This document shows positions 5,896 through 49,381 of a stretch of DNA of 64,000 bases, piece after piece. The stretch lies in the NCBI GenBank assembly GCA_000004985.1, contig GG738902.1; one strand, written 5' to 3'. The notes under the pieces were generated by a model. That model was not told the DNA's origin. It worked only from the letters and a program-made list of their open reading frames with translations, and did not search any database. Source of the stretch: Naegleria gruberi. Its lineage: Eukaryota. The position numbers and the translations under genes are program-made. Position 1 is the first letter of the stretch, and the number at the start of each line of letters is the position of its first letter.

Positions 5896-8800
5896 ATGCC
5901 ACTACACCAAACTTTCATCTACACTGGGAAGCTACAACCAGACGAAACTAAACATACAACATTTCCAACAACAAGAACAATATCGCGGAATAGTCGAATT
6001 TCTTTCTCTTCATCAACTATAACCACAAATTTAATTATTTCAATTCTACTGCTAGCATTTATCACCTCTCTCATACAATCTCTATATTATCAGATAGTGT
6101 ATTCATCCAACAATGACAACAAACTTTATAGTCACACATTCTTTGTGAATGCTGCCACTACATGCTATGGTGTTGACAGCACGGATCCTAGTGTTTGCTC
6201 GGGTAATGGAAATTGTACCAGTAAGAATAATTGTGAGTGCAATGATGGATTTAGTGGAAACAAATGTCAAACAGAGACGGTGAAATGTTATGGTGTAGTA
6301 GATACTGATCCTACAGTATGTTCAGGTCATGGAAATTGCTCTAGTAAGAATAATTGTCTGTGTGATTCAGGGTACAGTGGTAACAAGTGTCAAACCTTTG
6401 ATGGTACTAGTTCGATATCGTGTTATGGAATCGATTCGACAGATAGTTCAGTTTGTAATTACAATGGTAATTGCACAGCAACGAATAATTGCGTTTGTAA
6501 TCAAGGATATAGTGGAAATCAGTGCCAAACATTGGATAGCTCTTTTAAATGTTATGGAGTTGACTCTACTGACGTTTCTGTTTGTAATGGAAATGGAAAT
6601 TGTACATCAACTAATAATTGTGTCTGCAAATCTGGTTACACTGGGAATCAATGTCAAAATGAAGATAGTTCATTTAAATGCTACGGGGTTGACTCGACAG
6701 ATATCTCTGTTTGTAGCGGAAATGGAAATTGTACAAGCTCAAACAATTGCGAATGCAAATCTGGTTATACTGGTAATCAATGTCAATCAATTGATAGCTC
6801 TTTCAAGTGTTATGGTGTTGATTCGATAGATATCTCTGTTTGCAATGGAAATGGTAATTGCACTAGTTCAAATAATTGTGTTTGTAAATCTGGTTACAGT
6901 GGAAATCAATGTCAAACCTATGATGGCGGTAATAGTGGTTCATTTAAATGCTATGGAGTTGATTCTAGTGATATCTCTGTTTGTAGTGGAAACGGTAACT
7001 GTACTTCTGCTAATAATTGTGAATGTAAGGCAGGTTATAGCGGCAATCAATGCCAAACCTTCTCTACCTCTTTTAAGTGTTATGGTGTTGATTCGACAGA
7101 TAGTTCAGTTTGTAATGGAAATGGCAATTGCACCTCCTCTAATAATTGCGAATGTAAATCTGGATACACAGGAAACCAATGTCAATCAATTGATAGCTCG
7201 TTCAAGTGTTATGGTGTTGATTCGATGGATGTCTCTGTTTGCAATGGAAATGGTAATTGCACTAGTTCAAACAACTGTGTTTGTAAATCTGGTTACAGTG
7301 GGAATCAATGTCAAAACAATGATGGCAGTAGCACCATTAAATGTTATGGTATTGATTCGACTGACCCATCAGTTTGCTCAGGTCATGGTATCTGTTCCTC
7401 AACCAACGACTGCCAATGTGAAAATGGTTACAGTGGAAATAAGTGTCAAACCTTTGCAAACGAAACATCTACTTTCAAATGTTATGGTGTAGATTCTTCG
7501 GATCCTACTGTTTGCTCTGGTAATGGAAACTGTACATCCACCAACAATTGCCAATGCCAATCAGGATTCAGTGGAAATAAGTGTCAAACTACAGTTAATT
7601 ATTGCTTTGGTTATGATGAAAATGATAACAATGTTTGTGGTGGTCCAGATCGAGGAAAATGTACATCTAACGATGTTTGTGAATGTAAGGGAAGCTACGT
7701 TGGTTACGATTGTGGTGCTTTTGTTTCAGACAAATCACTCATCAAAATAACCTCAAAATATTCAAAGATTCTAAGCACCAATACTGACATTAATTTCATA
7801 ACAATTAGTATTCCAAAGCTCACTAACAGCTACAAGGGAATTGAGAATAGACTCAAGAGTACTTTGGTGATTTTCAGCAGTAATGTTACTATTGATTATT
7901 CCACTACTGGAATGATTGAACAGTTTCAATTGTATAAGAACATGACACTTGGCGTCTACTCTCTCAATTTAACCATTGTTGATACTACTTATAACATTCA
8001 AGTTGCTGCTACTGTTGAGAGCTCAATATTTTCTATACTGACTCTTGAACAAACTACTCAAAGTGTGGATACCTTGACAGCAAAAGAAATTGCACAAGTT
8101 ACAAAGCAATTGAACCAAATTACAAACCAACAACAATTTATTTCTACTGTGGTTTCTACTTTGAAAGAGAATGTTAATAATTACACAATTGATGATGGTT
8201 TAGATTTGACTTCGTCACTATTAGATATTTCCAATGTCAAGTTGGATACTAAATCTAAACTGGGAATATCTGAAACCCTAAAATCATATGCTCAAAATAT
8301 GATCGAAAAGTTTGACAATTTCACAACAGAACAAGTCAAACCAGTTGCAATTAACATCGTTTCTGTTGCCTCAAATATTTTAAATCAATCTATATTTACT
8401 GAACCATCATCTAAATTTGTGGTTATCGGTAATTCTATTCAATCCGTTGAAAAGACACTTTCCCTTGTTACGATTGTTAATCCAACAGAAAATTTATCAA
8501 TTGAAACTTCGATGATTAAGGTTCTTCTCATTTCAAAATCAGAATACAAGAATTTACATACTATAGATAAGGATTATACTCTTAATCTTCCAGAATTGGG
8601 GTTTGAATATTCGTTTGGTTTGGTAAAATATGAAAATTACTTGACAGAAGATTTGCAAAACACAAGTTCAATTTCTGACATTTTGCAAGTGAGACCAATG
8701 TTGAATGGTGTTTTTAGCCCTCTCAGACATTTATCCACTCCATTCAATTTGACTTTCTCTATCAAACATTTCGGTGCGCCACCAAGTAATGAAACAGTTG

Positions 8801-23949: not shown

Positions 23950-25269
23950 ATGACTGAACAACAAACAGTGTTAATTGATGATCTTCAATTAATTTCAAAT
24001 CAATTTCCATGTGGTGATATTCTTTGGGAAATTTTATCATTTTGTAATGATTTTACATTTATTGTAATGAATTGTGCACTAGTTTCCAAACAGTGGTACC
24101 ATGTCATTTTGGAAAGATGTAAACTCTCATTAACCTGCAATTCGGATCAGAAATTGAAGGGAAAATTTCTTGAAAGAGTTTCAAATTTCACAGTTAAAAA
24201 GAATGAAGAAGGAAATTTGTTTAATTGTCAAATTTTTGAATGTTTGAAGAATTTGACAAGAATTGATATCAGTGATAATGAAATTAGCGATGAAAGGGTT
24301 AAGCATTTTGGTAATTTGACTCATTTGACAAATCTTGTAATTAATTGTAACGACATTGGTGTAGAGGGAGCTAAATGTCTTTGTCAACTGAATCAATTAA
24401 CAAGGCTTAATATTGGAAACAACAGTCTTGAGACTGAAGGTGCTAAATACATTAGTGAACTGAAGAATTTGACCAAACTTGATATCGCTCGCAACTGTAT
24501 TGGTGATAGAGGTGCTCAATTTATTACTGAAATGAAACAACTGACTTCTCTAAACCTTAACAGGAATGGAATTGAATATTTAGGAGCAAAATTTATTAGT
24601 GAAATGTATCAATTAACGAGTCTTGATATCAGTAACAATGACATTGGTTCTGAAGGAGCTAAACAAATTAGCAAACTCGACCAATTGACCAAACTATATA
24701 TTTACGATAATAATATTGGTGATGAAGGAGCTATGCACATTAGCGAAATGAAACAACTAACTAATCTCGATATTAGCAGGAATGATATTGACTCAGAAGG
24801 TGCCAAATCCATATGTGAACTCTATCAATTAACAAATCTCAATATTTGTTCGAATTACATTGGTGAAACAGGTGCCAAGCATATCAGTGAAATGAATAAT
24901 TTGACCATTCTTGAAATTGGCAGTAATGAAATTGGATCTGAAGGAGCGTATCATATCAGCAGAATGCACCAATTGACTAGGCTCATGATTTTTGCTAATG
25001 ATATTGGAGAAAAAGGGGCCAAACATGTTTCTGAGATGAAACAATTAACTAAACTCGATATTTATGATAATAATATTGGTGATGAGGGAACTATACACAT
25101 TAGCGAAATGAAACAATTAACCTACCTCGATGTTTCAGCCAATAATATTGGTCACGAAGGTGCTGAATATATTAGGAAATTGAATCGATTGACATTTCTT
25201 AATGTTCACTATAATTCATTCAGTGATAGTGAATCAGAACTTATAGAAAAGGAGTTAATGAAGGATTAA
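23950..25269 (+). CDS. F-box-like / RNI-type leucine-rich-repeat protein
   Basis: The N-terminus ILWEILSFCNDFTFIVMNCALVSKQWYHVI is F-box-like. About 13 24-residue repeats follow (L(T/N)xLDIsxNxIGxEGAKxISEMKQ), visible as a 72-nt period in the DNA. Confidence 0.8.
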   Translation: MTEQQTVLIDDLQLISNQFPCGDILWEILSFCNDFTFIVMNCALVSKQWYHVILERCKLSLTCNSDQKLKGKFLERVSNFTVKKNEEGNLFNCQIFECLKNLTRIDISDNEISDERVKHFGNLTHLTNLVINCNDIGVEGAKCLCQLNQLTRLNIGNNSLETEGAKYISELKNLTKLDIARNCIGDRGAQFITEMKQLTSLNLNRNGIEYLGAKFISEMYQLTSLDISNNDIGSEGAKQISKLDQLTKLYIYDNNIGDEGAMHISEMKQLTNLDISRNDIDSEGAKSICELYQLTNLNICSNYIGETGAKHISEMNNLTILEIGSNEIGSEGAYHISRMHQLTRLMIFANDIGEKGAKHVSEMKQLTKLDIYDNNIGDEGTIHISEMKQLTYLDVSANNIGHEGAEYIRKLNRLTFLNVHYNSFSDSESELIEKELMKD

Positions 25270-43992: not shown

Positions 43993-44561
43993 TTTTTTCT
44001 TTTAGAATTTAAAATTTCCCGCTACAAAAATGTTAAACACTTCAAAATTGGAATTAAAATTTTGTAATATTGTACCAAATAAATATGTTTAATCAAATTC
44101 CATTCTTGTAATTCATATCCTTTTGTTGTACAGCTTCACCAAGTCAACCAATAGACAATATTTGAACGATTCCACTTATTTTTTTCTATCAGGAAAATGC
44201 TTGAACAGAATCCTCAAATAATGATGAAGGAATGAGATCATAAATGAGTTTGAAGAATTGTCTTTCCACTCAGTATCATCATGTTATCAATACTGAGATC
44301 AACATGCTTAGTAGAGGTGGAGAATAATAAAATTGAAATACCAGCAGCACTTTGGAGGACCTCCATTCGATTCTTGCTCCAATCGTGCTCTTTTTTGTCT
44401 CTTGTTCTCAATTATCAATGTGCGCTCAATTTCCGACGCAAGAATCAAAAAAAAAAAAGACGTTTTCCGTTCGCTCGTCCGTGATGCTTTAGAAACAAGC
44501 AACAGATAACAACACTGTAAAAAAGAAGAATTTGTGGCGTTTTGAGAAAGAGAAGGAAAGA
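43993..44561. promoter_or_regulatory. Shared divergent promoter region between the two Zn2Cys6 paralogs
   Basis: A 569-bp spacer separates start codons 43992 (minus) and 44562 (plus). It contains only short ORFs of no coding character. Confidence 0.4.
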
Positions 44562-47128
44562 ATGAATTCGTCATCAACATCACCACAACAGGCTCCTCCT
44601 CAAGGCTTTGGAAGTTTTCCTTCCTCCCCTAACAATAACATGTATACACAGCCTCAGCAACAACAATATTCTTCCTATAATAATAGTTTAAATAGTAGTA
44701 ATAGTACTAATAACAACATGATGATGATGAATAGTGTCCACCATCATCAGCCTCTTCCTTCATCTCCTTATAATCAACATCATCATGTGGCATCTCAATC
44801 AAACACCTCACAACAGCAACAGTATTATGATAATAACAATAATTATCAGGAATATAATAGACCACCGAATAATAATAACATGAATCATTCATCATCGATG
44901 AATAATGGTACGATGATTTCACTTCCTAGTCAAAATTCCTCCTATCAGACGTCACCATCACAATATGGCAACAGTAATAACAATAACTTTATTTATAATA
45001 TTCCACCACCATCCACACCACAGCAACCACCACCTCAACAAAATTATCATAATGGAATGCAAGGAATGAGTAGTAGTTCATATCAATTTGCGAATAGTAA
45101 TGGAATGCACAATAGAATGAATAATCAAAATGTGTCACCACCCATGAATCAACAACAAAATCTCGAATCAAGTCCAGAAGAAAATTCGTCATCACCAAAT
45201 GCTGAGCAATTGGGAAATTCGGATTTTCATCCCATCGCCTGTATAAATTGCAGAAAGCAACACAAACAATGGTAAGTTTAGTTATATTTGGAATTAAATC
45301 GATAACATTTTATAGTGGTAAGTATTAAATAAGAGAAATTGATTATTTAATGTTTCGGATATATAATTTAAACCTATCAGATAAGAAATTACCAAGTTGT
45401 CAACGATGTATTTCGAAAGGTATAACTTGTGAATATAAAACGCCTAGAAGAATGAGATATCCAAATCAGTCGAAACAAAAACAACAGCAACAGTCAACTG
45501 AGGAACAGCAACAATCAGAACCAAAGAAGAAGAAAAAGAAAACCGACTCGAAAGATAACCTAACACCAAAATCAAACTCTCCTCTCGATCCAGAAAATGT
45601 TTGTGCTCCAAATACAACTCTCACTAGCAGATTCCCTCAAACTCTCTCAAAAAAGAATATTATTGATATTTATTATAGCATGATATGCGATCACTTTATA
45701 TTTATTGAAAAACCAGTATTGGAAAAGTATATTCTTTCCAAGAGTAATAGTGAAGATGTGGATGATTCAGAATTACCACTCAAGAAGGAAATGCAGACAT
45801 TCTTCTTCTCTGTGACAGCACTAGTGGAACAACGTATGGGAATGGGAGATTTATCTGAAAAATCAGCAAAGAAGGCTAGAGATTGTCTTTCTAAACTTTT
45901 TGATGAAATGAATAACTTTGTAGTTGCCTGTTCGTATGCAAATTTGGGATCATATGAGATTGGATCAGGACGAGTCAAACTATCCAGGTTCTATTTCCAT
46001 AATGCCAAGTTTTACTTTGAAAGTTTGGACGATTCTGAAAAGTCAAGGTTATCAGAGCATGAAAAGGCTCTCCAAAAATACTTGACATCAGTGGAAATTG
46101 TAAATGCAGATAATGATCTAGGAATTTCAGCCATGATACATGACATGCCAAAAGTTTTTCATTTCACCACAGGACATCACTTACCTCAAGAAATTGTTAA
46201 AGCAACTCAACAAGAGGTCAGTCCTTCGAATTGTTTGGACTATCTCAAGATTGTGGAAATGATTGCCTCGTACTTGAACAAGTATTTCAGAGGTATGGCC
46301 ACTAAAACTAGAGGAGAAAAGGAAATGGAAATGTATGACAAGGGTAGTAATCTCTGCCAAGGTTTACTAATGAACGGATTACGTGTAGGTGTCTTGACTA
46401 AGGCAGGGTATGGCAAGGATCTTATTGAAGAGTCTTCTTTGAGAATTACGTATGCGTCCGAGAGTGAATTTTTTCCATTCCTTCCTGTTATTGTAATTCC
46501 ACACGTTGCTCTCGCTGCCCGTATTCACTTACAAATTGTAAAAAAGATTGAAAATGGTACCAGACAAAATCATCAGAAAGGGCTCACTTTCCAAAATACC
46601 GTTGGACCTATTGATTATTTTGATATTCTGGCAAAAGATTACAGATCACTCATTATTCTCTCTAAAAGATTTAAGAGAGTGTCGGTATGTTACGGTTCTC
46701 TCCTTGATGAAATTAAAGAGATTTTAGGTAGGAGAGTTGAAGCTCAGCAAAACAACGACACCACCTCGACAAATAACTCTAATACTGTTACTACCCCAAT
46801 TGCAGATGATGCACTCTTACAGCCACTTTCCTTAGACTCTTCCAGCCTGCCTCCACTGTCCTTCCTTCTAGGTTCTATGAATGATAATCCTTCACTACCT
46901 CAATCTTCAAGCTCTCAAAAATCAACCCTTGATGGATATGCTTCCAACAATTTACAACAAAGCATTTTCAATTCAATAATTCAATCTCCAATCAAATCAC
47001 CCTCACAACAACAAGAGTTGTACTTTGCTGATCCATTCTTTACACACGAAGATTTACAACAAATATTTTCTCCACATACGTATGGCGATTTTGAGGATGT
47101 ATCAGAATATAGTTTTAATGTGAAATAA
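44562..47128 (+). CDS. Zn2Cys6 (Gal4-type) binuclear-cluster transcription factor, three exons including a 2-nt micro-exon
   Basis: Exons: 44562..45271, 45316..45317 (TG), 45381..47128. The total is 2460 nt, or 819 codons plus stop. The ORF-track start at 44532 is TTG. Both donors are GTAAGT (45272 and 45318). Acceptors are TTTTATAG (ends 45315) and CCTATCAG (ends 45380). The product reads ACINCRKQHKQCDKKLPSCQRCISKGITCEY. The N-terminus is Q/N-rich and the C-terminal region is collinear with the minus-strand paralog. Confidence 0.8.
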
Positions 47129-47154
47129 ATTAGTTCCTTTCCCATATAATATCT

Positions 47155-47493
47155 CTATTGTTCTTCCACGTATTTGGCTACATATTCAGGATAGCATGGC
47201 AATCTATCTCCTAGCATAACGTGGTGATTACCAGTTTGAGTTTCAGCTGTTGGTTCAAAGACTGGTTCCAAAGGCTTTTCCACAAATACTTCGTGATCTT
47301 TCTTAACTGGTAATTCTTCCTTCTTTTCTTCAACAACTGGTGTTTCTGTAATTGTTTCTTCCTTCTTTTCTTCAACTGGTGCTTCTACAACTTGAGTAGT
47401 TTCCACAGAAATTGGTGGTACTTGTTCAATTGAACAAATAAATGGAATTGTTTCTTGAATTAACTTTTTACAATTTTCAACTTGATAATTCAA
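47155..47493 (-). CDS. E/K/P/V-rich ORF without an ATG, probably the displaced 3' end of the upstream ankyrin/coiled-coil gene
   Basis: The 112-codon ORF starts at TTG. It has coding-like internal repeats (PVEEKKEETITETPVVEEKKEELPV). It overlaps the preceding ORF by 17 nt in a frame offset by +1. I found no canonical intron that joins them. Confidence 0.35.
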   Translation of the reverse strand: MNYQVENCKKLIQETIPFICSIEQVPPISVETTQVVEAPVEEKKEETITETPVVEEKKEELPVKKDHEVFVEKPLEPVFEPTAETQTGNHHVMLGDRLPCYPEYVAKYVEEQ

Positions 47494-49381
47494 TCAGGTA
47501 AATTCCAATTTGAACTTTTTTAGGAATAAATTGTTGTAATTCAACAGTTTCGTTTCCAAGGCTCTCCATGATTTTTCTTAATAATTCATAAATTTCAATA
47601 ATTTCACTTAATTCATCCTTATTTAACAATTGAATGTCAGTTAAATATTCTTGATTCAAATATGTTTTGATAAATTCATCCAATACTATTAACTTCTCTT
47701 CCAATTCTTGAATATATTTGGTCAATTTCATTAAAAAATTCTCCGATTTAATGCTTTCTACCATACAAGTCATGTTTAACTTTAGTTCATCAACTTGTGA
47801 ACTTTCTTGTTCAAGTTTCAATTCATTAGCATGTTCAAAACAATTCTTTAACTTTTCACAAATTTCCAAATATTCTTTTTGAAATTCATTTTCTAATACA
47901 GTACATAAAACCTTAATTGCATTGATTTGTGAATTGGATTGAGTTTCTTCTTGTCTTTCAATATTTGTTTCTTGTGTTTCGTCTTGTTCTTTAATATTTT
48001 CGTCTTGTTTTTCGAGAGTTTCTTGATTTTCATCATGTTTTTCCTCTTGTTGTTCGAGAGTTTCTTGGTTTTCATCATGTTTTTCAAGTGGTTCTTGTTT
48101 TTCAAGAATTTCTTTCTTAATTTTATCTTTTTCAACTTTTTCATTCAATTCCTTCTTAATTTTGGAAATTTCCTTTCCGTTGACTTTCCATAAATTGTTA
48201 ATTTTAATATTTGGTGATTGAAGTAATAATTTAACAATTTCTAAACGTCCTTTTTCACATGCAATATGTAATGGAGACTAATAAATATTTAAAAATGTTG
48301 TAATTATTATTACTTACTTCCTATTATGGTAATGTTTAAAATAAGTATTAAATACAAACCATCTAAATAATAATGTAAAATATTTTAAATATTTAATTCT
48401 TACATGCTACGAGGAAATAATTAATAAATTAATTATTAATTTACATACTTCCTAAAATAGATAAATAATTTAATTGGTTAATTACTCACTTTCTAATAAC
48501 AAAGTTGGCAAATTAATTTCAATATTTAATAATACTAACTTCCTATTAAAAAAATTAATATTAAATATTAAAAATACTAACAATCTAAAAAAATGTAAAT
48601 ATTTAAAATTGTTTAAAAACTTACAACTCTCTAAAACAAATATACACGTAATTTAATTAGTAGAGACTTACTTGCTAATAAAAATATTAATTTAAGATTA
48701 TATTACTTAAATTACATACTTCCTAATAAGGAACTTGTTCATAAATAAAGAATTTAATACTTACTCCCTAATAATATTAACATTAAATAGTTATAAGTGA
48801 AATACTAACTTTCTAATAAATTATTTTATAAATAACTAAGTATTAAATACTTACATGCTAATAAAATGCTAATTTAATACAAAATTACCAAATTTAGAAT
48901 ACTTACATACTAAAAATAGTATTATTTTTATATTTTTTAATATTAAATTACTTACAGTCTGAAAATATTATTATTACAATGCTAGCAACACTTACAAACT
49001 AATAGCATTAAATATAAATAATTAATTATTCAATTCCTTACATACTAATTAATTATTTAGTATTTTACAATATTTCCTTAAATACTTACTTTCTACAATC
49101 ATACCCATTTAGATCTTATTAAACAATTGATATTCTACTCACATACTACTCAATTTTAAATATTTATAATGTTAATATTAAATAGTACTTACTCCCTTAT
49201 TCACATCAAGTCCTCCACAATTCAACAATAACTTGACAATTTCCAAATGTCCCCTCTCACAAGCCATGTACAACAATGTCTTATTCCGATCAGATTCATT
49301 TACCTTCGTTGGCTTGAAATACTTTTTAAACTCGGCAACGTTTCCACTATTTGCAGCATCTACAAGATGAGGAGAGAGCAT
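47477..49381 (-). CDS. Ankyrin-repeat plus acidic coiled-coil protein; exon 1 49381..49193, long exon 48277..47477, separated by the mini-intron/micro-exon array
   Basis: Exon 1 reads MLSPHLVDAANSGNVAEFKKYF...TLLYMACERGHLEIVKLLLNCGGLDVNKG and ends in phase 0 before GTAAGT. The exon from 48277 reads SPLHIACEKGRLEIVKLLLQSPNIKINNLWKVNGKEISK..., continuous with ORF 48148..47477. The M of that track entry is a TTG codon. Confidence 0.7.
48278..49192 (-). other. Array of 20 mini-introns (37-50 nt) separated by 19 micro-exons (18 of 3 nt, one of 6 nt)
   Basis: Micro-exons on the minus strand: 49145-49143 TAT; 49092-49090 AAA; 49044-49042 TAT; 48998-48996 TTT; 48958-48956 ACT; 48909-48907 TAT; 48857-48855 CAT; 48812-48810 AAA; 48767-48765 GGA; 48722-48720 GAA; 48674-48672 CAA; 48630-48625 AGAGTT; 48584-48582 ATT; 48542-48540 GAA; 48492-48490 AAA; 48451-48449 GAA; 48406-48404 CAT; 48362-48360 ATG; 48320-48318 GAA. 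Each is preceded by (T/A-rich)AG. Each is followed by GTAAGT (10 times; 11 counting the exon-1 donor), GTTAGT (3), GTATGT (2), GTGAGT (2), GTAAGG, GTAAGA or GTTTGT. Intron lengths sum to 855 nt and exon lengths to 60 nt, matching the 915-nt span. Confidence 0.7.

What the first reader, a model, noticed from the sequence alone, without database searches (positions are those of the whole stretch)
48278..49192. Chain of 20 mini-introns separated by 19 frame-preserving micro-exons inside an ankyrin-repeat gene
Exon 1 (49381..49193) ends ...LDVNKG in phase 0. The next long exon starts at 48277 with SPLHIACEKGRLEIVKLLL, also in phase 0. The minus strand between them is not one anonymous intron.

It parses completely into 20 units of the form GT[A/T/G]AG[T/G/A] ... 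37-50 nt ... (T/A-rich)AG. Every adjacent pair of units is separated by exactly 3 nt, once by 6 nt. Coordinates are in the feature list. Introns sum to 855 nt and spacers to 60 nt, which equals the 915-nt gap.

All spacers are multiples of three, so any subset of inclusions keeps the frame. None of the 20 spacer codons is a stop. The unit interiors are diverged and AT-rich, while only the splice-consensus ends are conserved. That is the reverse of what a simple satellite shows.

Introns I could confirm by frame and motif elsewhere in this window are 40-138 nt, so 37-50 nt is a working size here. The Zn2Cys6 genes 3-6 kb away demonstrably need 2-nt and 6-nt micro-exons.

Full inclusion would insert YKYFTYHKGEQRVIEKEHME between two ankyrin repeats. 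Full skipping leaves a 29-residue repeat spacing, 4 short of the canonical 33. Neither extreme is obviously correct, and combinatorial use is conceivable.

Alternative readings are stepwise (recursive or nested) removal of a long intron, or a recent tandem proliferation of an intron unit. I am not aware of a described gene with this density of consecutive micro-exons.
Basis: partly seen in the sequence, partly recalled or inferred. Interest (0 to 1): 0.9.

Follow-up and report, generated by a model that had tools for sequence, protein, structure and literature searches.

The report
Twenty tandem mini-introns, one-codon exons
Between two coding exons of a Naegleria gruberi ankyrin-repeat gene lie 20 head-to-tail minimal introns separated by single codons, which looks like one tiny intron multiplied by tandem duplication with every copy kept spliceable. 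If RNA data confirm it, this would be the densest run of introns and micro-exons I could find described.

Summary
On the minus strand, 49192..48278 parses into 20 GT...AG units of 37-50 nt separated by eighteen 3-nt spacers and one 6-nt spacer. No spacer codon is a stop.

This is far beyond chance. The junction motif occurs 18 times in 915 nt, against a simulated mean of 0.38, and nothing comparable occurs elsewhere in the window.

The organism is Naegleria gruberi and the gene is NAEGRDRAFT_73154. Its public model already threads 11 micro-exons through this interval.

Unit interiors are almost unalignable. Even so, G+1, T+2, G+5, A-2 and G-1 are present in 20 of 20 units, although interior G content is 4.9%. 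That pattern requires selection on every splice site.

Two neighbouring Zn2Cys6 genes give a complete Zn_clus domain only if 2-nt and 6-nt micro-exons between 40-63-nt introns are spliced in. The N. fowleri orthologue needs a 12-nt micro-exon at the same place. Naegleria therefore appears to splice such structures.

Best reading: a frozen "intron minisatellite" made by tandem duplication of one codon plus one mini-intron, with each unit spliced individually.

No transcript data could be reached, so actual micro-exon usage remains inferred. I rate it a new variant of a known kind.

The parts
49193..49381 (-). Exon 1 of NAEGRDRAFT_73154. It runs from the ATG to ...LDVNKG (63 codons), ends in phase 0 with codon GGA, and encodes an N-terminal cap and ankyrin repeat 1.
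   Evidence: Pfam Ank_2, Ank and related families match. It is identical to the N-terminus of P0001. AlphaFold pLDDT is 96-98.
49146..49192 (-). Mini-intron 1 (47 nt, GTAAGT...GAGTAG, a tandem acceptor), followed by micro-exon TAT at 49145-49143.
49093..49142 (-). Mini-intron 2 (50 nt, GTGAGT...TTGTAG), followed by micro-exon AAA at 49092-49090.
49045..49089 (-). Mini-intron 3 (45 nt, GTAAGT...AATTAG), followed by micro-exon TAT at 49044-49042.
48999..49041 (-). Mini-intron 4 (43 nt, GTAAGG...TATTAG), followed by micro-exon TTT at 48998-48996. The public model uses this micro-exon.
48959..48995 (-). Mini-intron 5 (37 nt, GTAAGT...TTTCAG; the shortest unit and the only CAG acceptor), followed by micro-exon ACT at 48958-48956. 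The public model uses this micro-exon.
48910..48955 (-). Mini-intron 6 (46 nt, GTAAGT...TTTTAG), followed by micro-exon TAT at 48909-48907. The public model uses this micro-exon.
48858..48906 (-). Mini-intron 7 (49 nt, GTAAGT...TATTAG), followed by micro-exon CAT at 48857-48855. An internal AG 11 nt upstream is used by the public model, giving the 14-nt exon 48868-48855.
48813..48854 (-). Mini-intron 8 (42 nt, GTAAGT...TATTAG), followed by micro-exon AAA at 48812-48810.
48768..48809 (-). Mini-intron 9 (42 nt, GTTAGT...TATTAG), followed by micro-exon GGA at 48767-48765. GGA is the same codon as the last codon of exon 1.
48723..48764 (-). Mini-intron 10 (42 nt, GTAAGT...TATTAG), followed by micro-exon GAA at 48722-48720.
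48675..48719 (-). Mini-intron 11 (45 nt, GTATGT...TATTAG), followed by micro-exon CAA at 48674-48672.
48631..48671 (-). Mini-intron 12 (41 nt, GTAAGT...TTTTAG), followed by the only 6-nt spacer, AGAGTT, at 48630-48625. The spacer can also be read as AGA followed by a GTTGTA donor.
48585..48624 (-). Mini-intron 13 (40 nt, GTAAGT...TTTTAG), followed by micro-exon ATT at 48584-48582.
48543..48581 (-). Mini-intron 14 (39 nt, GTTAGT...TAATAG), followed by micro-exon GAA at 48542-48540.
48493..48539 (-). Mini-intron 15 (47 nt, GTTAGT...TATTAG), followed by micro-exon AAA at 48492-48490.
48452..48489 (-). Mini-intron 16 (38 nt, GTGAGT...TTTTAG), followed by micro-exon GAA at 48451-48449.
48407..48448 (-). 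Mini-intron 17 (42 nt, GTATGT...TCGTAG), followed by micro-exon CAT at 48406-48404.
48363..48403 (-). Mini-intron 18 (41 nt, GTAAGA...ATTTAG), followed by micro-exon ATG at 48362-48360.
48321..48359 (-). Mini-intron 19 (39 nt, GTTTGT...TAATAG), followed by micro-exon GAA at 48320-48318. Its 3' end and the GAA are identical in a second strain (L001).
48278..48317 (-). Mini-intron 20 (40 nt, GTAAGT...TATTAG). It is present in the second strain (L001) with a 3-nt slippage deletion in its interior and intact splice sites.
47477..48277 (-). Exon 2. It begins SPLHIACEKGRLEIVKLLL (ankyrin repeat 2) and continues into an E/K/Q-rich helical region. In this strain it ends at a stop created by an 11-nt deletion relative to strain L001. 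The old reading frame continues to 47155.

Best explanation
The 915-nt interval is a tandem array of 20 minimal-size U2-type spliceosomal introns inside the N. gruberi ankyrin-repeat gene NAEGRDRAFT_73154.

Origin (inferred). A single ~40-nt intron together with one flanking codon, most simply the GGA that ends exon 1, was duplicated in tandem. The copy number then grew by slippage or unequal exchange while the copies were still alike. This fixed the spacer at 3 nt and the period at about 45 nt.

Maintenance (largely shown). The AT-rich interiors have since diverged by substitution and slippage until they are barely alignable. Every unit has nevertheless kept a consensus donor (GTAAGTAtT) and acceptor (TtaTTAG). 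Retaining any one unit would give a stop codon or a frameshift. The array is therefore a 'frozen intron minisatellite' held in place by purifying selection on 40 splice sites.

Processing (inferred). In a short-intron organism that splices by intron definition, each donor pairs with the nearest downstream acceptor, probably sequentially from 5' to 3'. The one-codon spacers are then kept as micro-exons. They add up to 20 residues (YKYFTYHKGEQRVIEKEHME) to the loop between ankyrin repeats 1 and 2. Because all spacers are multiples of 3 nt, occasional donor-to-distant-acceptor skipping stays in frame and is tolerated. A mixture of isoforms is therefore expected.
For: Anatomy and significance:
- The parse is exact.
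- There are 18 junction motifs against 0.38 expected, and none of this kind elsewhere in 64 kb.
- The array is in the sense orientation, exactly between two phase-0 ankyrin-repeat exons.

Selection on splice sites:
- G+1, T+2, G+5, A-2 and G-1 are present in 20 of 20 units, with interior G at 4.9%.
- Mean pairwise identity is 1.0 at these positions and falls to the ~0.40 background in the middle of the units.
- Interiors are barely more alike than shuffled sequence, and Tandem Repeats Finder is silent.
- All eight units whose length is a multiple of 3 contain an in-frame stop. The four units without an in-frame stop have lengths that shift the frame.

Tandem-duplication origin:
- The period is tight, with units of 37-50 nt.
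- Residual similarity extends 10-20 nt either side of the junctions, and units 1 and 20 are 73% alike over 41 nt.
- Spacer types cluster by position. The 5' half is mostly TAT, CAT, TTT and ACT. The 3' half is mostly GGA, GAA, AAA and CAA, which are one or two AT-biased changes away from the GGA that ends exon 1.

The species can splice such structures:
- Zn2Cys6 genes A and B give a full-length Zn_clus match (43.5 and 36.3 bits, profile positions 2-37/38 of 39) only when 2-nt and 6-nt micro-exons between 40-63-nt introns are joined.
- Public model P0086 contains the gene B micro-exons.
- The N. fowleri orthologue needs a 12-nt micro-exon at the same place.

This gene specifically:
- The public model (P0001 / XP_002671913.1) can be threaded through the interval in only one way with GT/GC-AG introns. 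That path has 12 introns and 11 micro-exons, nine of which are my 3-nt spacers.
- A second strain conserves the last 1.5 units and the GAA spacer.
- AlphaFold keeps both flanking ankyrin repeats at pLDDT 95-98 with a 16-residue insert at pLDDT ~78.
Against: - No transcript evidence was reachable. It is unknown whether the public model rests on ESTs or is ab initio.
- That model uses two non-consensus choices, 14-nt and 7-nt exons that compensate each other's frame. This could be an artefact of a gene predictor.
- Evidence that the spacers are translated is weak. 'No stop codon' has p of about 0.1, and '3n spacers' could largely reflect descent from one founding duplication.
- Pfam scores do not favour inclusion. 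Ank_2 scores 63.9 bits for skip-all, 67.5 bits with only the last codon added, and 58.2 bits for include-all.
- The gene looks weakly constrained. pN/pS between two strains is 0.99 (16.5 nonsynonymous and 3.5 synonymous differences). This strain has an 11-nt frameshifting deletion near the 3' end. No orthologue was found in N. fowleri. This sits awkwardly with long-term selection on 40 splice sites.
- Homology between unit interiors is weak, so the tandem-duplication origin is inferred from period and junction similarity, not demonstrated.
- A branch-point motif could not be shown to be enriched.
- Only 1 of 19 spacers ends in G. Five of the eight independently supported introns I read in the window have G at exon position -1.
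Confidence: 0.6

Rival explanations
1. One long intron with decoy sites. The whole 915 nt is removed in one step (donor at 49192, acceptor at 48278). The internal units are a degenerate intronic minisatellite whose splice-site look-alikes are not productively used. The mRNA is exon 1 joined directly to exon 2.
For: - The skip-all protein is a good ankyrin match (Ank_2 63.9 bits).
- A 29-residue repeat spacing is within the ankyrin range.
- Evidence that the spacers are translated is weak.
- The gene is weakly constrained.
Against: - Under this model the internal sites would be neutral. Yet all 95 internal invariant positions (the five invariant positions in each of the 19 internal donors and acceptors) are intact while the interiors have decayed to background identity.
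- Twenty consensus donors, each 37-50 nt from a consensus acceptor, would have to be ignored by a spliceosome that demonstrably uses 40-63-nt introns next door.
- I could confirm no intron longer than 92 nt in the window.
Confidence: 0.15
2. Stepwise (nested or recursive) removal. Internal units are excised first to shorten an intron that is too long for an intron-definition spliceosome. The remnant, including all spacers, is then removed, so no micro-exon reaches the mRNA.
For: - It would explain selection on the internal sites without requiring the spacers to be coding.
- Removing units 2-19 would leave a 144-nt remnant, within the size range seen in the window.
Against: - The defining recursive-site feature, an acceptor abutting a donor (AG|GTRAGT), is absent. 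There is no AGGTRWGT in the array, and the spacing is always 3 or 6 nt.
- Nothing favours pairing donor 1 with acceptor 20 over donor 1 with acceptor 1, which is 47 nt away.
- No splice signal is interrupted and then rebuilt, as happens in stwintrons.
- If the spacers were never exonic, there would be no reason for all of them to be multiples of 3 nt.
Confidence: 0.08
3. Programmed combinatorial micro-exon choice. The array exists to generate many in-frame isoforms, up to 2^19, that differ in the length and sequence of the inter-repeat loop of an ankyrin binding module. This would be analogous to schistosome micro-exon genes.
For: - All spacers are multiples of 3 nt, so every donor-acceptor combination stays in frame.
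- The insertion point is the loop between two confidently folded ankyrin repeats. By general knowledge of ankyrin repeats, this is a ligand-contact region.
- The public model is itself a partial-inclusion isoform with 11 micro-exons, nine of them among the 19 spacers.
- The gene evolves fast between strains.
Against: - There is no RNA evidence of multiple isoforms.
- Combinatorial use would relax, not strengthen, selection on each individual site, yet none has been lost.
- The spacer peptide has no recognisable feature.
- The protein has no signal of being a recognition molecule.
- Neutral tolerance of mis-pairing explains the same facts.
Confidence: 0.1
4. Not a splicing feature. It is a DNA-level repeat (for example an array of protein-binding sites), a mobile-element cluster, or an assembly artefact.
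For: None specific. The region is the most AT-rich 2 kb of the window (GC 0.25).
Against: - The conserved core is exactly the donor and acceptor consensus, in the gene's sense orientation, filling an obligatory intron position.
- There are no terminal inverted repeats or target-site duplications, and neighbouring spacers differ.
- There is no Rfam match.
- An independent metagenomic contig from another strain reproduces the last 62 nt.
- The units are diverged enough to assemble uniquely.
Confidence: 0.03

Closest known systems
Intron gain by expansion of an intron-containing tandem repeat. Examples are Cryptococcus CNN00420 (Sharpton et al. 2008, PMC2395259) and human introns arising from tandem arrays (Zhuo et al. 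2007, PNAS 104:882). I cite Zhuo et al. only from the reference list of PMC3488318; the paper itself was not held.
   Same: New introns arise because a repeat unit carrying both a donor and an acceptor is multiplied head to tail inside a gene. Copy number grows by slippage or unequal exchange.
   Different: - In those cases the units are near-identical and recent, and each contains a sizeable exon segment.
- Here the exon part is a single codon and the intron is of minimal size.
- There are 20 copies, and the copies have diverged except at their splice signals.
Single very small micro-exons. Examples are the 1-nt exon in Fusarium CYP621A (PMC12940212) and 3-nt exons in Drosophila hth (PMC7392893), human MAP4K5 (PMC8632122) and RPS24 (PMC12207440).
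   Same: Exons of 1-3 nt can be spliced and can be conserved.
   Different: Those are isolated micro-exons flanked by ordinary, usually long, introns. They are not 19 in a row at ~45-nt spacing.
Schistosome micro-exon genes (MEGs; PMC10526429)
   Same: Runs of symmetric (3n) micro-exons, so that any inclusion pattern stays in frame. Protein variation arises by differential splicing.
   Different: - MEG exons are 3-81 bp, are separated by long introns (up to 5 kb), make up most of the coding sequence, and encode secreted proteins.
- Here the introns are ~43 nt, and the array is a small insert in an otherwise ordinary ankyrin gene.
Recursive splicing, and dual-specific AGGT splice-site arrays such as human UBC (PMC10809524)
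   Same: Many internal splice sites lie within one intron-like interval. In UBC a tandem array of sites gives stochastic in-frame isoforms.
   Different: Recursive and dual-specific sites are an acceptor abutting a donor (AG|GT). This array has none, and its sites are separate and 3 nt apart.
Tandem mini-introns with 2-12-nt micro-exons in the Naegleria Zn2Cys6 genes, described in this report
   Same: Same genome and same neighbourhood. The intron size class is similar (40-63 nt in the N. gruberi genes, and ~68 and ~190 nt in N. fowleri), the donor and acceptor consensus is the same, and the micro-exons are flanked directly by introns.
   Different: There are only 2-3 introns per cluster, and the micro-exons there encode an indispensable Cys of a conserved domain. 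Their use can therefore be inferred from the protein, which is not possible for the ankyrin array.

Membership tests
U2-type GT-AG spliceosomal intron (each of the 20 units) | Donor GT with the species consensus (GTAAGT-like, G at +5) | tested here: met
   G+1, T+2 and G+5 in 20/20 units, A+4 in 17/20, T+6 in 18/20. Independently supported introns in the window have the same consensus.
U2-type GT-AG spliceosomal intron (each of the 20 units) | Acceptor YAG preceded by a T-rich tract | tested here: met
   AG in 20/20 units, T-3 in 19/20 (one C), T-4 in 15/20, T-6 in 17/20.
U2-type GT-AG spliceosomal intron (each of the 20 units) | Length within the range this species splices | tested here: met
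   Introns of 40, 44, 46, 49 and 63 nt are required to rebuild Zn_clus domains in the same window. Sixteen of the 20 units are at least 40 nt. Four are 37-39 nt.
U2-type GT-AG spliceosomal intron (each of the 20 units) | Recognisable branch point at a suitable distance from the acceptor | tested here: inconclusive
   Candidate motifs (TTAAC, TGAAC, CTAAAT, TTAAT) are present but not enriched over shuffled interiors. The sequence is too AT-rich to judge.
U2-type GT-AG spliceosomal intron (each of the 20 units) | Actually excised from the transcript | not testable with these tools
   No RNA data could be reached. RNA-seq exists under PRJEB23822 (PMC6142364).
Introns multiplied by tandem repeat expansion | Head-to-tail units of constant period, each carrying a donor and an acceptor | tested here: met
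   The period (unit plus spacer) is 40-53 nt across 20 units.
Introns multiplied by tandem repeat expansion | Demonstrable sequence homology between units | tested here: inconclusive
   Interiors score only slightly above shuffles (z = 6 for the mean, and the best pair is within the shuffle range). Tandem Repeats Finder is silent. Similarity of 72-88% is confined to ~24-46 nt around the junctions, where selection on splice signals could also explain it.
Introns multiplied by tandem repeat expansion | Copy-number differences between close relatives | not testable with these tools
   The only second-strain contig (L001) ends inside unit 19.
Recursive splice sites (ratchet points) | Acceptor directly abutting a donor (AG|GTRAGT, a zero-length exon) | tested here: not met
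   AGGTRWGT has 5 matches in the window and none in 48278-49192. The spacing is 3 nt in 18 cases and 6 nt in one.
Stwintron (spliceosomal twin intron) | An internal intron interrupts a splice signal of an external intron, and the signal is rebuilt after the first excision | tested here: not met
   Every unit has complete signals of its own, and no signal is split.
Micro-exon gene (schistosome MEG type) | Consecutive symmetric (3n) micro-exons | tested here: met
   All 19 spacers are 3 or 6 nt.
Micro-exon gene (schistosome MEG type) | Micro-exons form most of the coding sequence and are separated by long introns | tested here: not met
   The spacers total 60 nt against ~990 nt of ordinary exons, and the introns are 37-50 nt.
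Ankyrin-repeat protein (host gene) | Significant match to the ankyrin repeat profiles | tested here: met
   Ank_2 1.4e-16, Ank 1.9e-13, Ank_3, Ank_4 and Ank_5. AlphaFold gives helix pairs with pLDDT 95-98 on both sides of the array.

The most novel reading that the evidence does not exclude
The array is a built-in isoform generator. Stochastic or regulated pairing among 20 donors and 20 acceptors yields a large family of in-frame mRNAs, up to 2^19, that differ by which one-codon micro-exons they carry. This would diversify the inter-repeat loop of an ankyrin binding module. Tandem intron multiplication of this kind may also be a general, still active route of intron gain in Naegleria, with the Zn2Cys6 clusters as small examples and this array as the extreme.
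Probability: 0.12. Interest if true: 0.9.

Novelty: new variant of a known kind. Interest (0 to 1): 0.66.

Why it matters
If the units are spliced as they appear to be, four things follow.

1. **Intron gain.** This would be a clear natural example of intron gain by tandem multiplication of an existing intron. It is caught at a stage where selection has frozen 20 copies in place, a textbook case of a neutral ratchet in gene structure.

2. **Limits of splicing.** It pushes the known limits of the spliceosome. There would be nineteen consecutive 3-nt exons at ~45-nt spacing, compared with isolated micro-exons elsewhere. It offers a compact 915-nt natural substrate for studying splicing order, steric limits and intron definition.

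3. **In-frame variation.** It provides a way to make in-frame protein-length variation without exon definition.

4. **Annotation.** Naegleria gene models miss or mangle micro-exons:
   - The N. fowleri Zn2Cys6 model lacks a cysteine-coding 12-nt exon.
   - The N. gruberi gene A model lacks the whole zinc cluster.
   - Micro-exon-aware re-annotation is therefore warranted in a genus that includes a human pathogen.

Tried and rejected
- **Metagenome scan for similar arrays.** The pattern was TTAG-N3-GTAAGT...TAG-N3-GTAAGT...TAG-N3-GTWAGT. It returned more than 120 loci, but every match I checked was a (GTAA/GTTA)n microsatellite (582 matches, none a real array).
- **Viral-contig scan.** A stricter pattern against viral contigs hit one microsatellite.
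- **5' side of the array in the second strain.** I searched for it through the upstream neighbour ORF657. Only the N. gruberi protein itself and a 24%-identical stranger were found.
- **N. gruberi scaffold.** It could not be fetched through the look-up of encoding contigs, so no genome-wide scan was possible.
- **N. fowleri syntenic locus (L122).** It has the Zn2Cys6 gene but no match to the ankyrin gene, ORF657 or ORF718. There is therefore no orthologous array to compare, and no array-like junction chains appear in its 22.7 kb.
- **Branch-point enrichment.** Not significant.
- **Pfam scoring of eight splice variants.** Differences were 9 bits or less and were not discriminating.
- **RNA folding of the interval.** z = -3.3 on 20 shuffles, with no end-bridging helix of note.
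- **Rfam.** No match.
- **Mobile-element (introner) reading.** Rejected because there are no terminal inverted repeats, no target-site duplications and no similar interiors.
- **Literature searches**. I found no report of tandem intron arrays or micro-exons in Naegleria.
- **Papers not held.** The N. gruberi genome paper and Zhuo et al. 2007 were not available.


Full report
**1. What is there**

The window is Naegleria gruberi. The spliced ankyrin protein matches 'predicted protein [Naegleria gruberi]' P0001 (XP_002671913.1, NAEGRDRAFT_73154) at 95% identity over 100% of the query. Window GC is about 33%.

On the minus strand, exon 1 (49381..49193) encodes MLSPH...LLLNCGGLDVNKG. Exon 2 starts at 48277 with SPLHIACEKGRLEIVKLLL. 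The joined protein matches Ank_2 and the other ankyrin profiles.

- 20 GT...AG units of 37-50 nt, summing to 855 nt.
- 19 spacers, eighteen of 3 nt and one of 6 nt, summing to 60 nt.
- The spacers are TAT AAA TAT TTT ACT TAT CAT AAA GGA GAA CAA AGAGTT ATT GAA AAA GAA CAT ATG GAA.
- They translate to YKYFTYHKGEQRVIEKEHME, with no stop.

**2. Is it more than chance?**

Yes, by a wide margin.
- The junction motif AG-N3-GT[ATG][ATG]G[TAG] occurs 18 times in 915 nt.
- First-order Markov sequences of the same composition give a mean of 0.38 and never more than 4 in 2000 trials.
- The rest of the window has 47 loose matches in ~127 kb of both strands, and no strict matches.
- A three-junction pattern matches only here, with no match in any of 100 shuffles.
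- Chains of adjacent mini-introns occur in the window only in this array and in two Zn2Cys6 genes.

**3. Conserved ends, diverged middles**

Tandem Repeats Finder reports no ~45-nt period.

Global alignment of unit interiors scores only slightly above shuffles, and the best pair is within the shuffle range.

Column by column, pairwise identity is as follows:
- 1.00 at +1, +2 and +5.
- 0.7-0.8 at +4, +6, +7 and +9.
- 0.7-1.0 at -6 and from -3 to -1.
- Close to the compositional background (~0.40) in between.

Interior G content is 4.9%, yet the three G positions of each unit (+1, +5 and -1) are G in 20 of 20 units.

Even a modest neutral divergence of 10% per site would be expected to destroy about ten of these 100 invariant positions. 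None is lost. This requires purifying selection on every donor and acceptor, or a very recent origin. Recent origin is contradicted by the diverged interiors.

The one comparison available with another strain is contig L001 from ENA metagenome ERZ929261, which is ~97-98% identical. It covers the last 62 nt of the array. It shows intact junctions, the same GAA spacer, and one 3-nt slippage deletion inside unit 20. Slippage in the AT-rich interiors therefore does speed their divergence.

**4. Can this organism splice such things?**

This is the strongest indirect evidence.

*Zn2Cys6 gene A, 3-6 kb away.* The sequence reads ...CAA TG|GTAAGT..TATAG|TG|GTAAGT..ATCAG|ATAAGAAA.... Joining the 2-nt exon fuses two long ORFs into one 829-codon frame. 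It also restores CINCRKQHKQCDKKLPSC.

*Paralogue gene B.* It has three introns of 40, 46 and 49 nt, with micro-exons AAAATG and TG.

*Domain test.* With the micro-exons, both genes give full-length Zn_clus matches (43.5 and 36.3 bits, profile positions 2-37/38 of 39). The unspliced halves give nothing, or 23.6 bits over half the profile. The public gene B model (P0086) contains these micro-exons.

*N. fowleri orthologue (P0085, locus L122).* It has AAG|GTAAGT...AAAAG|CAATGCGATAAG|GTTAGT...TTCAG|AAA. This is a 12-nt micro-exon encoding QCDK, and the NCBI model skips it.

Micro-exons of 2-12 nt are therefore a conserved feature of Naegleria genes. In N. gruberi their flanking introns are 40-63 nt, and in N. 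fowleri ~68 and ~190 nt. The intron positions in this little cluster differ between species and paralogues, which suggests local intron turnover.

**5. The public model of this gene**

P0001 carries FTYHFISIKLGQEEME between KG and SPLH.

An exhaustive search for GT/GC-AG exon chains that translate to this peptide gives a single solution:
- Units 1-4 are removed together as one 194-nt intron.
- Micro-exons TTT, ACT and TAT follow.
- Next comes a 14-nt exon that uses an AG inside unit 7.
- Next comes a 7-nt exon that uses a weak GTATTT donor.
- Then come GGA, CAA, GAA, GAA, ATG and GAA.
- In total there are 12 introns and 11 micro-exons.

I could not find out whether this model rests on ESTs. 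If it does, it is direct evidence of partial inclusion. If it is ab initio, it shows only that a gene finder also prefers many short introns to one 915-nt intron.

**6. Origin (inferred)**

Several features fit tandem duplication of [one codon + one mini-intron], with copy number growing while the copies were still alike:
- The period is tight.
- Junction-centred similarity of 72-88% extends over 24-46 nt, and units 1 and 20 are 73% alike over 41 nt.
- Spacer types cluster by position. The 5' half is mostly YAT-type. The 3' half is mostly GGA, GAA, AAA and CAA, which are close to the GGA that ends exon 1.

Known precedents are intron-containing repeat expansion in Cryptococcus CNN00420 (PMC2395259) and introns arising from tandem arrays in human (Zhuo et al. 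2007, cited from PMC3488318).

**7. Processing (inferred)**

With 20 consensus donors, each 37-50 nt from a consensus acceptor, nearest-neighbour pairing is the default expectation in a short-intron organism. All spacers would then be retained.

Sequential 5'-to-3' removal avoids the problem of a 3-nt 5' exon. After unit k is removed, the 5' exon is long again.

Retention of any one unit gives a stop or a frameshift, which explains selection on each site. Because the spacers are multiples of 3 nt, skipping is harmless, so mixed isoforms are likely.

The insert lies in the loop between two ankyrin repeats. AlphaFold folds these repeats confidently (pLDDT 95-98) even with the 16-residue insert of P0001 (pLDDT ~78).

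Pfam scores for eight variants differ by 9 bits or less and do not decide the matter.

**8. What argues against**

- No RNA data could be reached.
- The coding signal in the spacers is weak. 'No stop' has p of about 0.1. Spacer G+C is 22% against 11% in the interiors. '3n spacers' could largely be inherited from one founding duplication.
- The gene looks weakly constrained. pN/pS between the two strains is 0.99, though on only 20 differences. This strain carries an 11-nt frameshifting deletion near 47490 that the other strain lacks. There is no orthologue at the syntenic N. fowleri locus.
- A branch-point signal could not be demonstrated.

**9. Rivals**

- *Single long intron with decoy sites.* It fails to explain the perfect preservation of the internal sites.
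- *Recursive splicing.* It fails its defining test, because there is no AG|GT juxtaposition.
- *Stwintron.* No splice signal is interrupted.
- *Introner or other mobile element.* There are no terminal repeats, no target duplications and no shared interiors.
- *Programmed combinatorial diversity.* It is not excluded, but it is not needed.

**10. Comparison and novelty**

Isolated 1-3-nt exons are known (PMC12940212, PMC7392893, PMC8632122, PMC12207440). So are runs of symmetric micro-exons separated by long introns in schistosome MEGs (PMC10526429), tandem dual-specific splice sites in UBC (PMC10809524), and intron gain by repeat expansion (PMC2395259).

My literature searches found nothing like 20 minimal introns separated by single codons, and nothing on micro-exons in Naegleria. 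I file it as a new variant of a known kind.

**11. Dead ends**

My attempt to test generality by scanning metagenomes was swamped by (GTAA)n microsatellites and is uninformative.

**12. Verdict**

- The interpretation as genuine, individually selected mini-introns is well supported by the sequence.
- Inclusion of the micro-exons in mRNA is the most likely outcome but is untested.
- Existing RNA-seq (PRJEB23822, PMC6142364) could settle the question quickly.

Noticed in passing
window 45272-45381 (+): Zn2Cys6 gene A needs a 2-nt micro-exon (TG, 45316-45317) between a 44-nt intron and a 63-nt intron. Joining it links ORFs 44532-45271 and 45381-47128 into one 829-codon frame and completes the Zn_clus domain. 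The public N. gruberi model P0084 (558 aa) starts downstream and lacks the zinc cluster altogether.
   Followed up: yes
window 43315-43173 (-): Zn2Cys6 gene B has three tandem introns (40, 46 and 49 nt) separated by micro-exons AAAATG (43275-43270) and TG (43223-43222). The public model P0086 includes them and carries PF00172.
   Followed up: yes
L122 10706-10990 (N. fowleri VFQX01000007.1): The N. fowleri orthologue of gene A has a 12-nt micro-exon, CAATGCGATAAG (L122:10774-10785, encoding QCDK), between two introns. The NCBI model FDP41_010721 (P0085) skips it and so lacks one of the six zinc-binding cysteines. Intron positions are shifted by 5 nt on each side relative to N. gruberi. The adjacent N. 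fowleri paralogue (L122:12814-14802) has no intron at this place.
   Followed up: partly
window ~47480-47500 (-): The ankyrin gene in this strain has an 11-nt deletion (5 + 6 nt) relative to strain L001. This shifts the frame and creates the stop at 47477. In L001 the ORF runs on for about 100 more codons to ...YVEEQ. The downstream frame is still open in the window (47493-47155). It could be a recent truncation, a strain polymorphism or a sequencing error.
   Followed up: partly
window 47497-48277 (-) compared with L001: Exon 2 of the ankyrin gene differs from the second strain by 16.5 nonsynonymous and 3.5 synonymous changes (pN/pS 0.99), plus in-frame indels. The adjacent 1.35 kb (45800-47154, the 3' part of Zn2Cys6 gene A) is 99.6% identical. 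The ankyrin gene is evolving quickly or without constraint.
   Followed up: partly
window 48225-48265 and 49227-49267: The two ankyrin repeats that flank the array are 78% identical at the DNA level over 41 nt (family D4). They are therefore a fairly recent duplicate pair.
   Followed up: no
window 47939-48114 (-): There are imperfect 21-, 30-, 33- and 42-nt coding tandem repeats in exon 2 (the E/K/Q-rich region ...EKHDENQETLE...), with a 3-nt indel between strains.
   Followed up: no
window 6421-7589 (+): A long array of ~129-138-nt (higher-order 270- and 399-nt) coding repeats encodes Cys-rich, EGF-like modules (CYGVDSTDISVCNGNGNC...GYTGNQC).
   Followed up: no
window 24643-25180 (+): There are 7.5 copies of a 72-nt coding repeat (IGDEGAKHISEMKQLTNLDICANN), which looks like a leucine-rich repeat of the ribonuclease-inhibitor type.
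   Followed up: no
L002-L081 (JGI metagenome contigs): Long (GTAA/GTTA)n microsatellite tracts are common in a group of JGI metagenome contigs. They mimic AG-N3-GTAAGT periodicity, which is a trap for any pattern-based search for intron arrays.
   Followed up: yes
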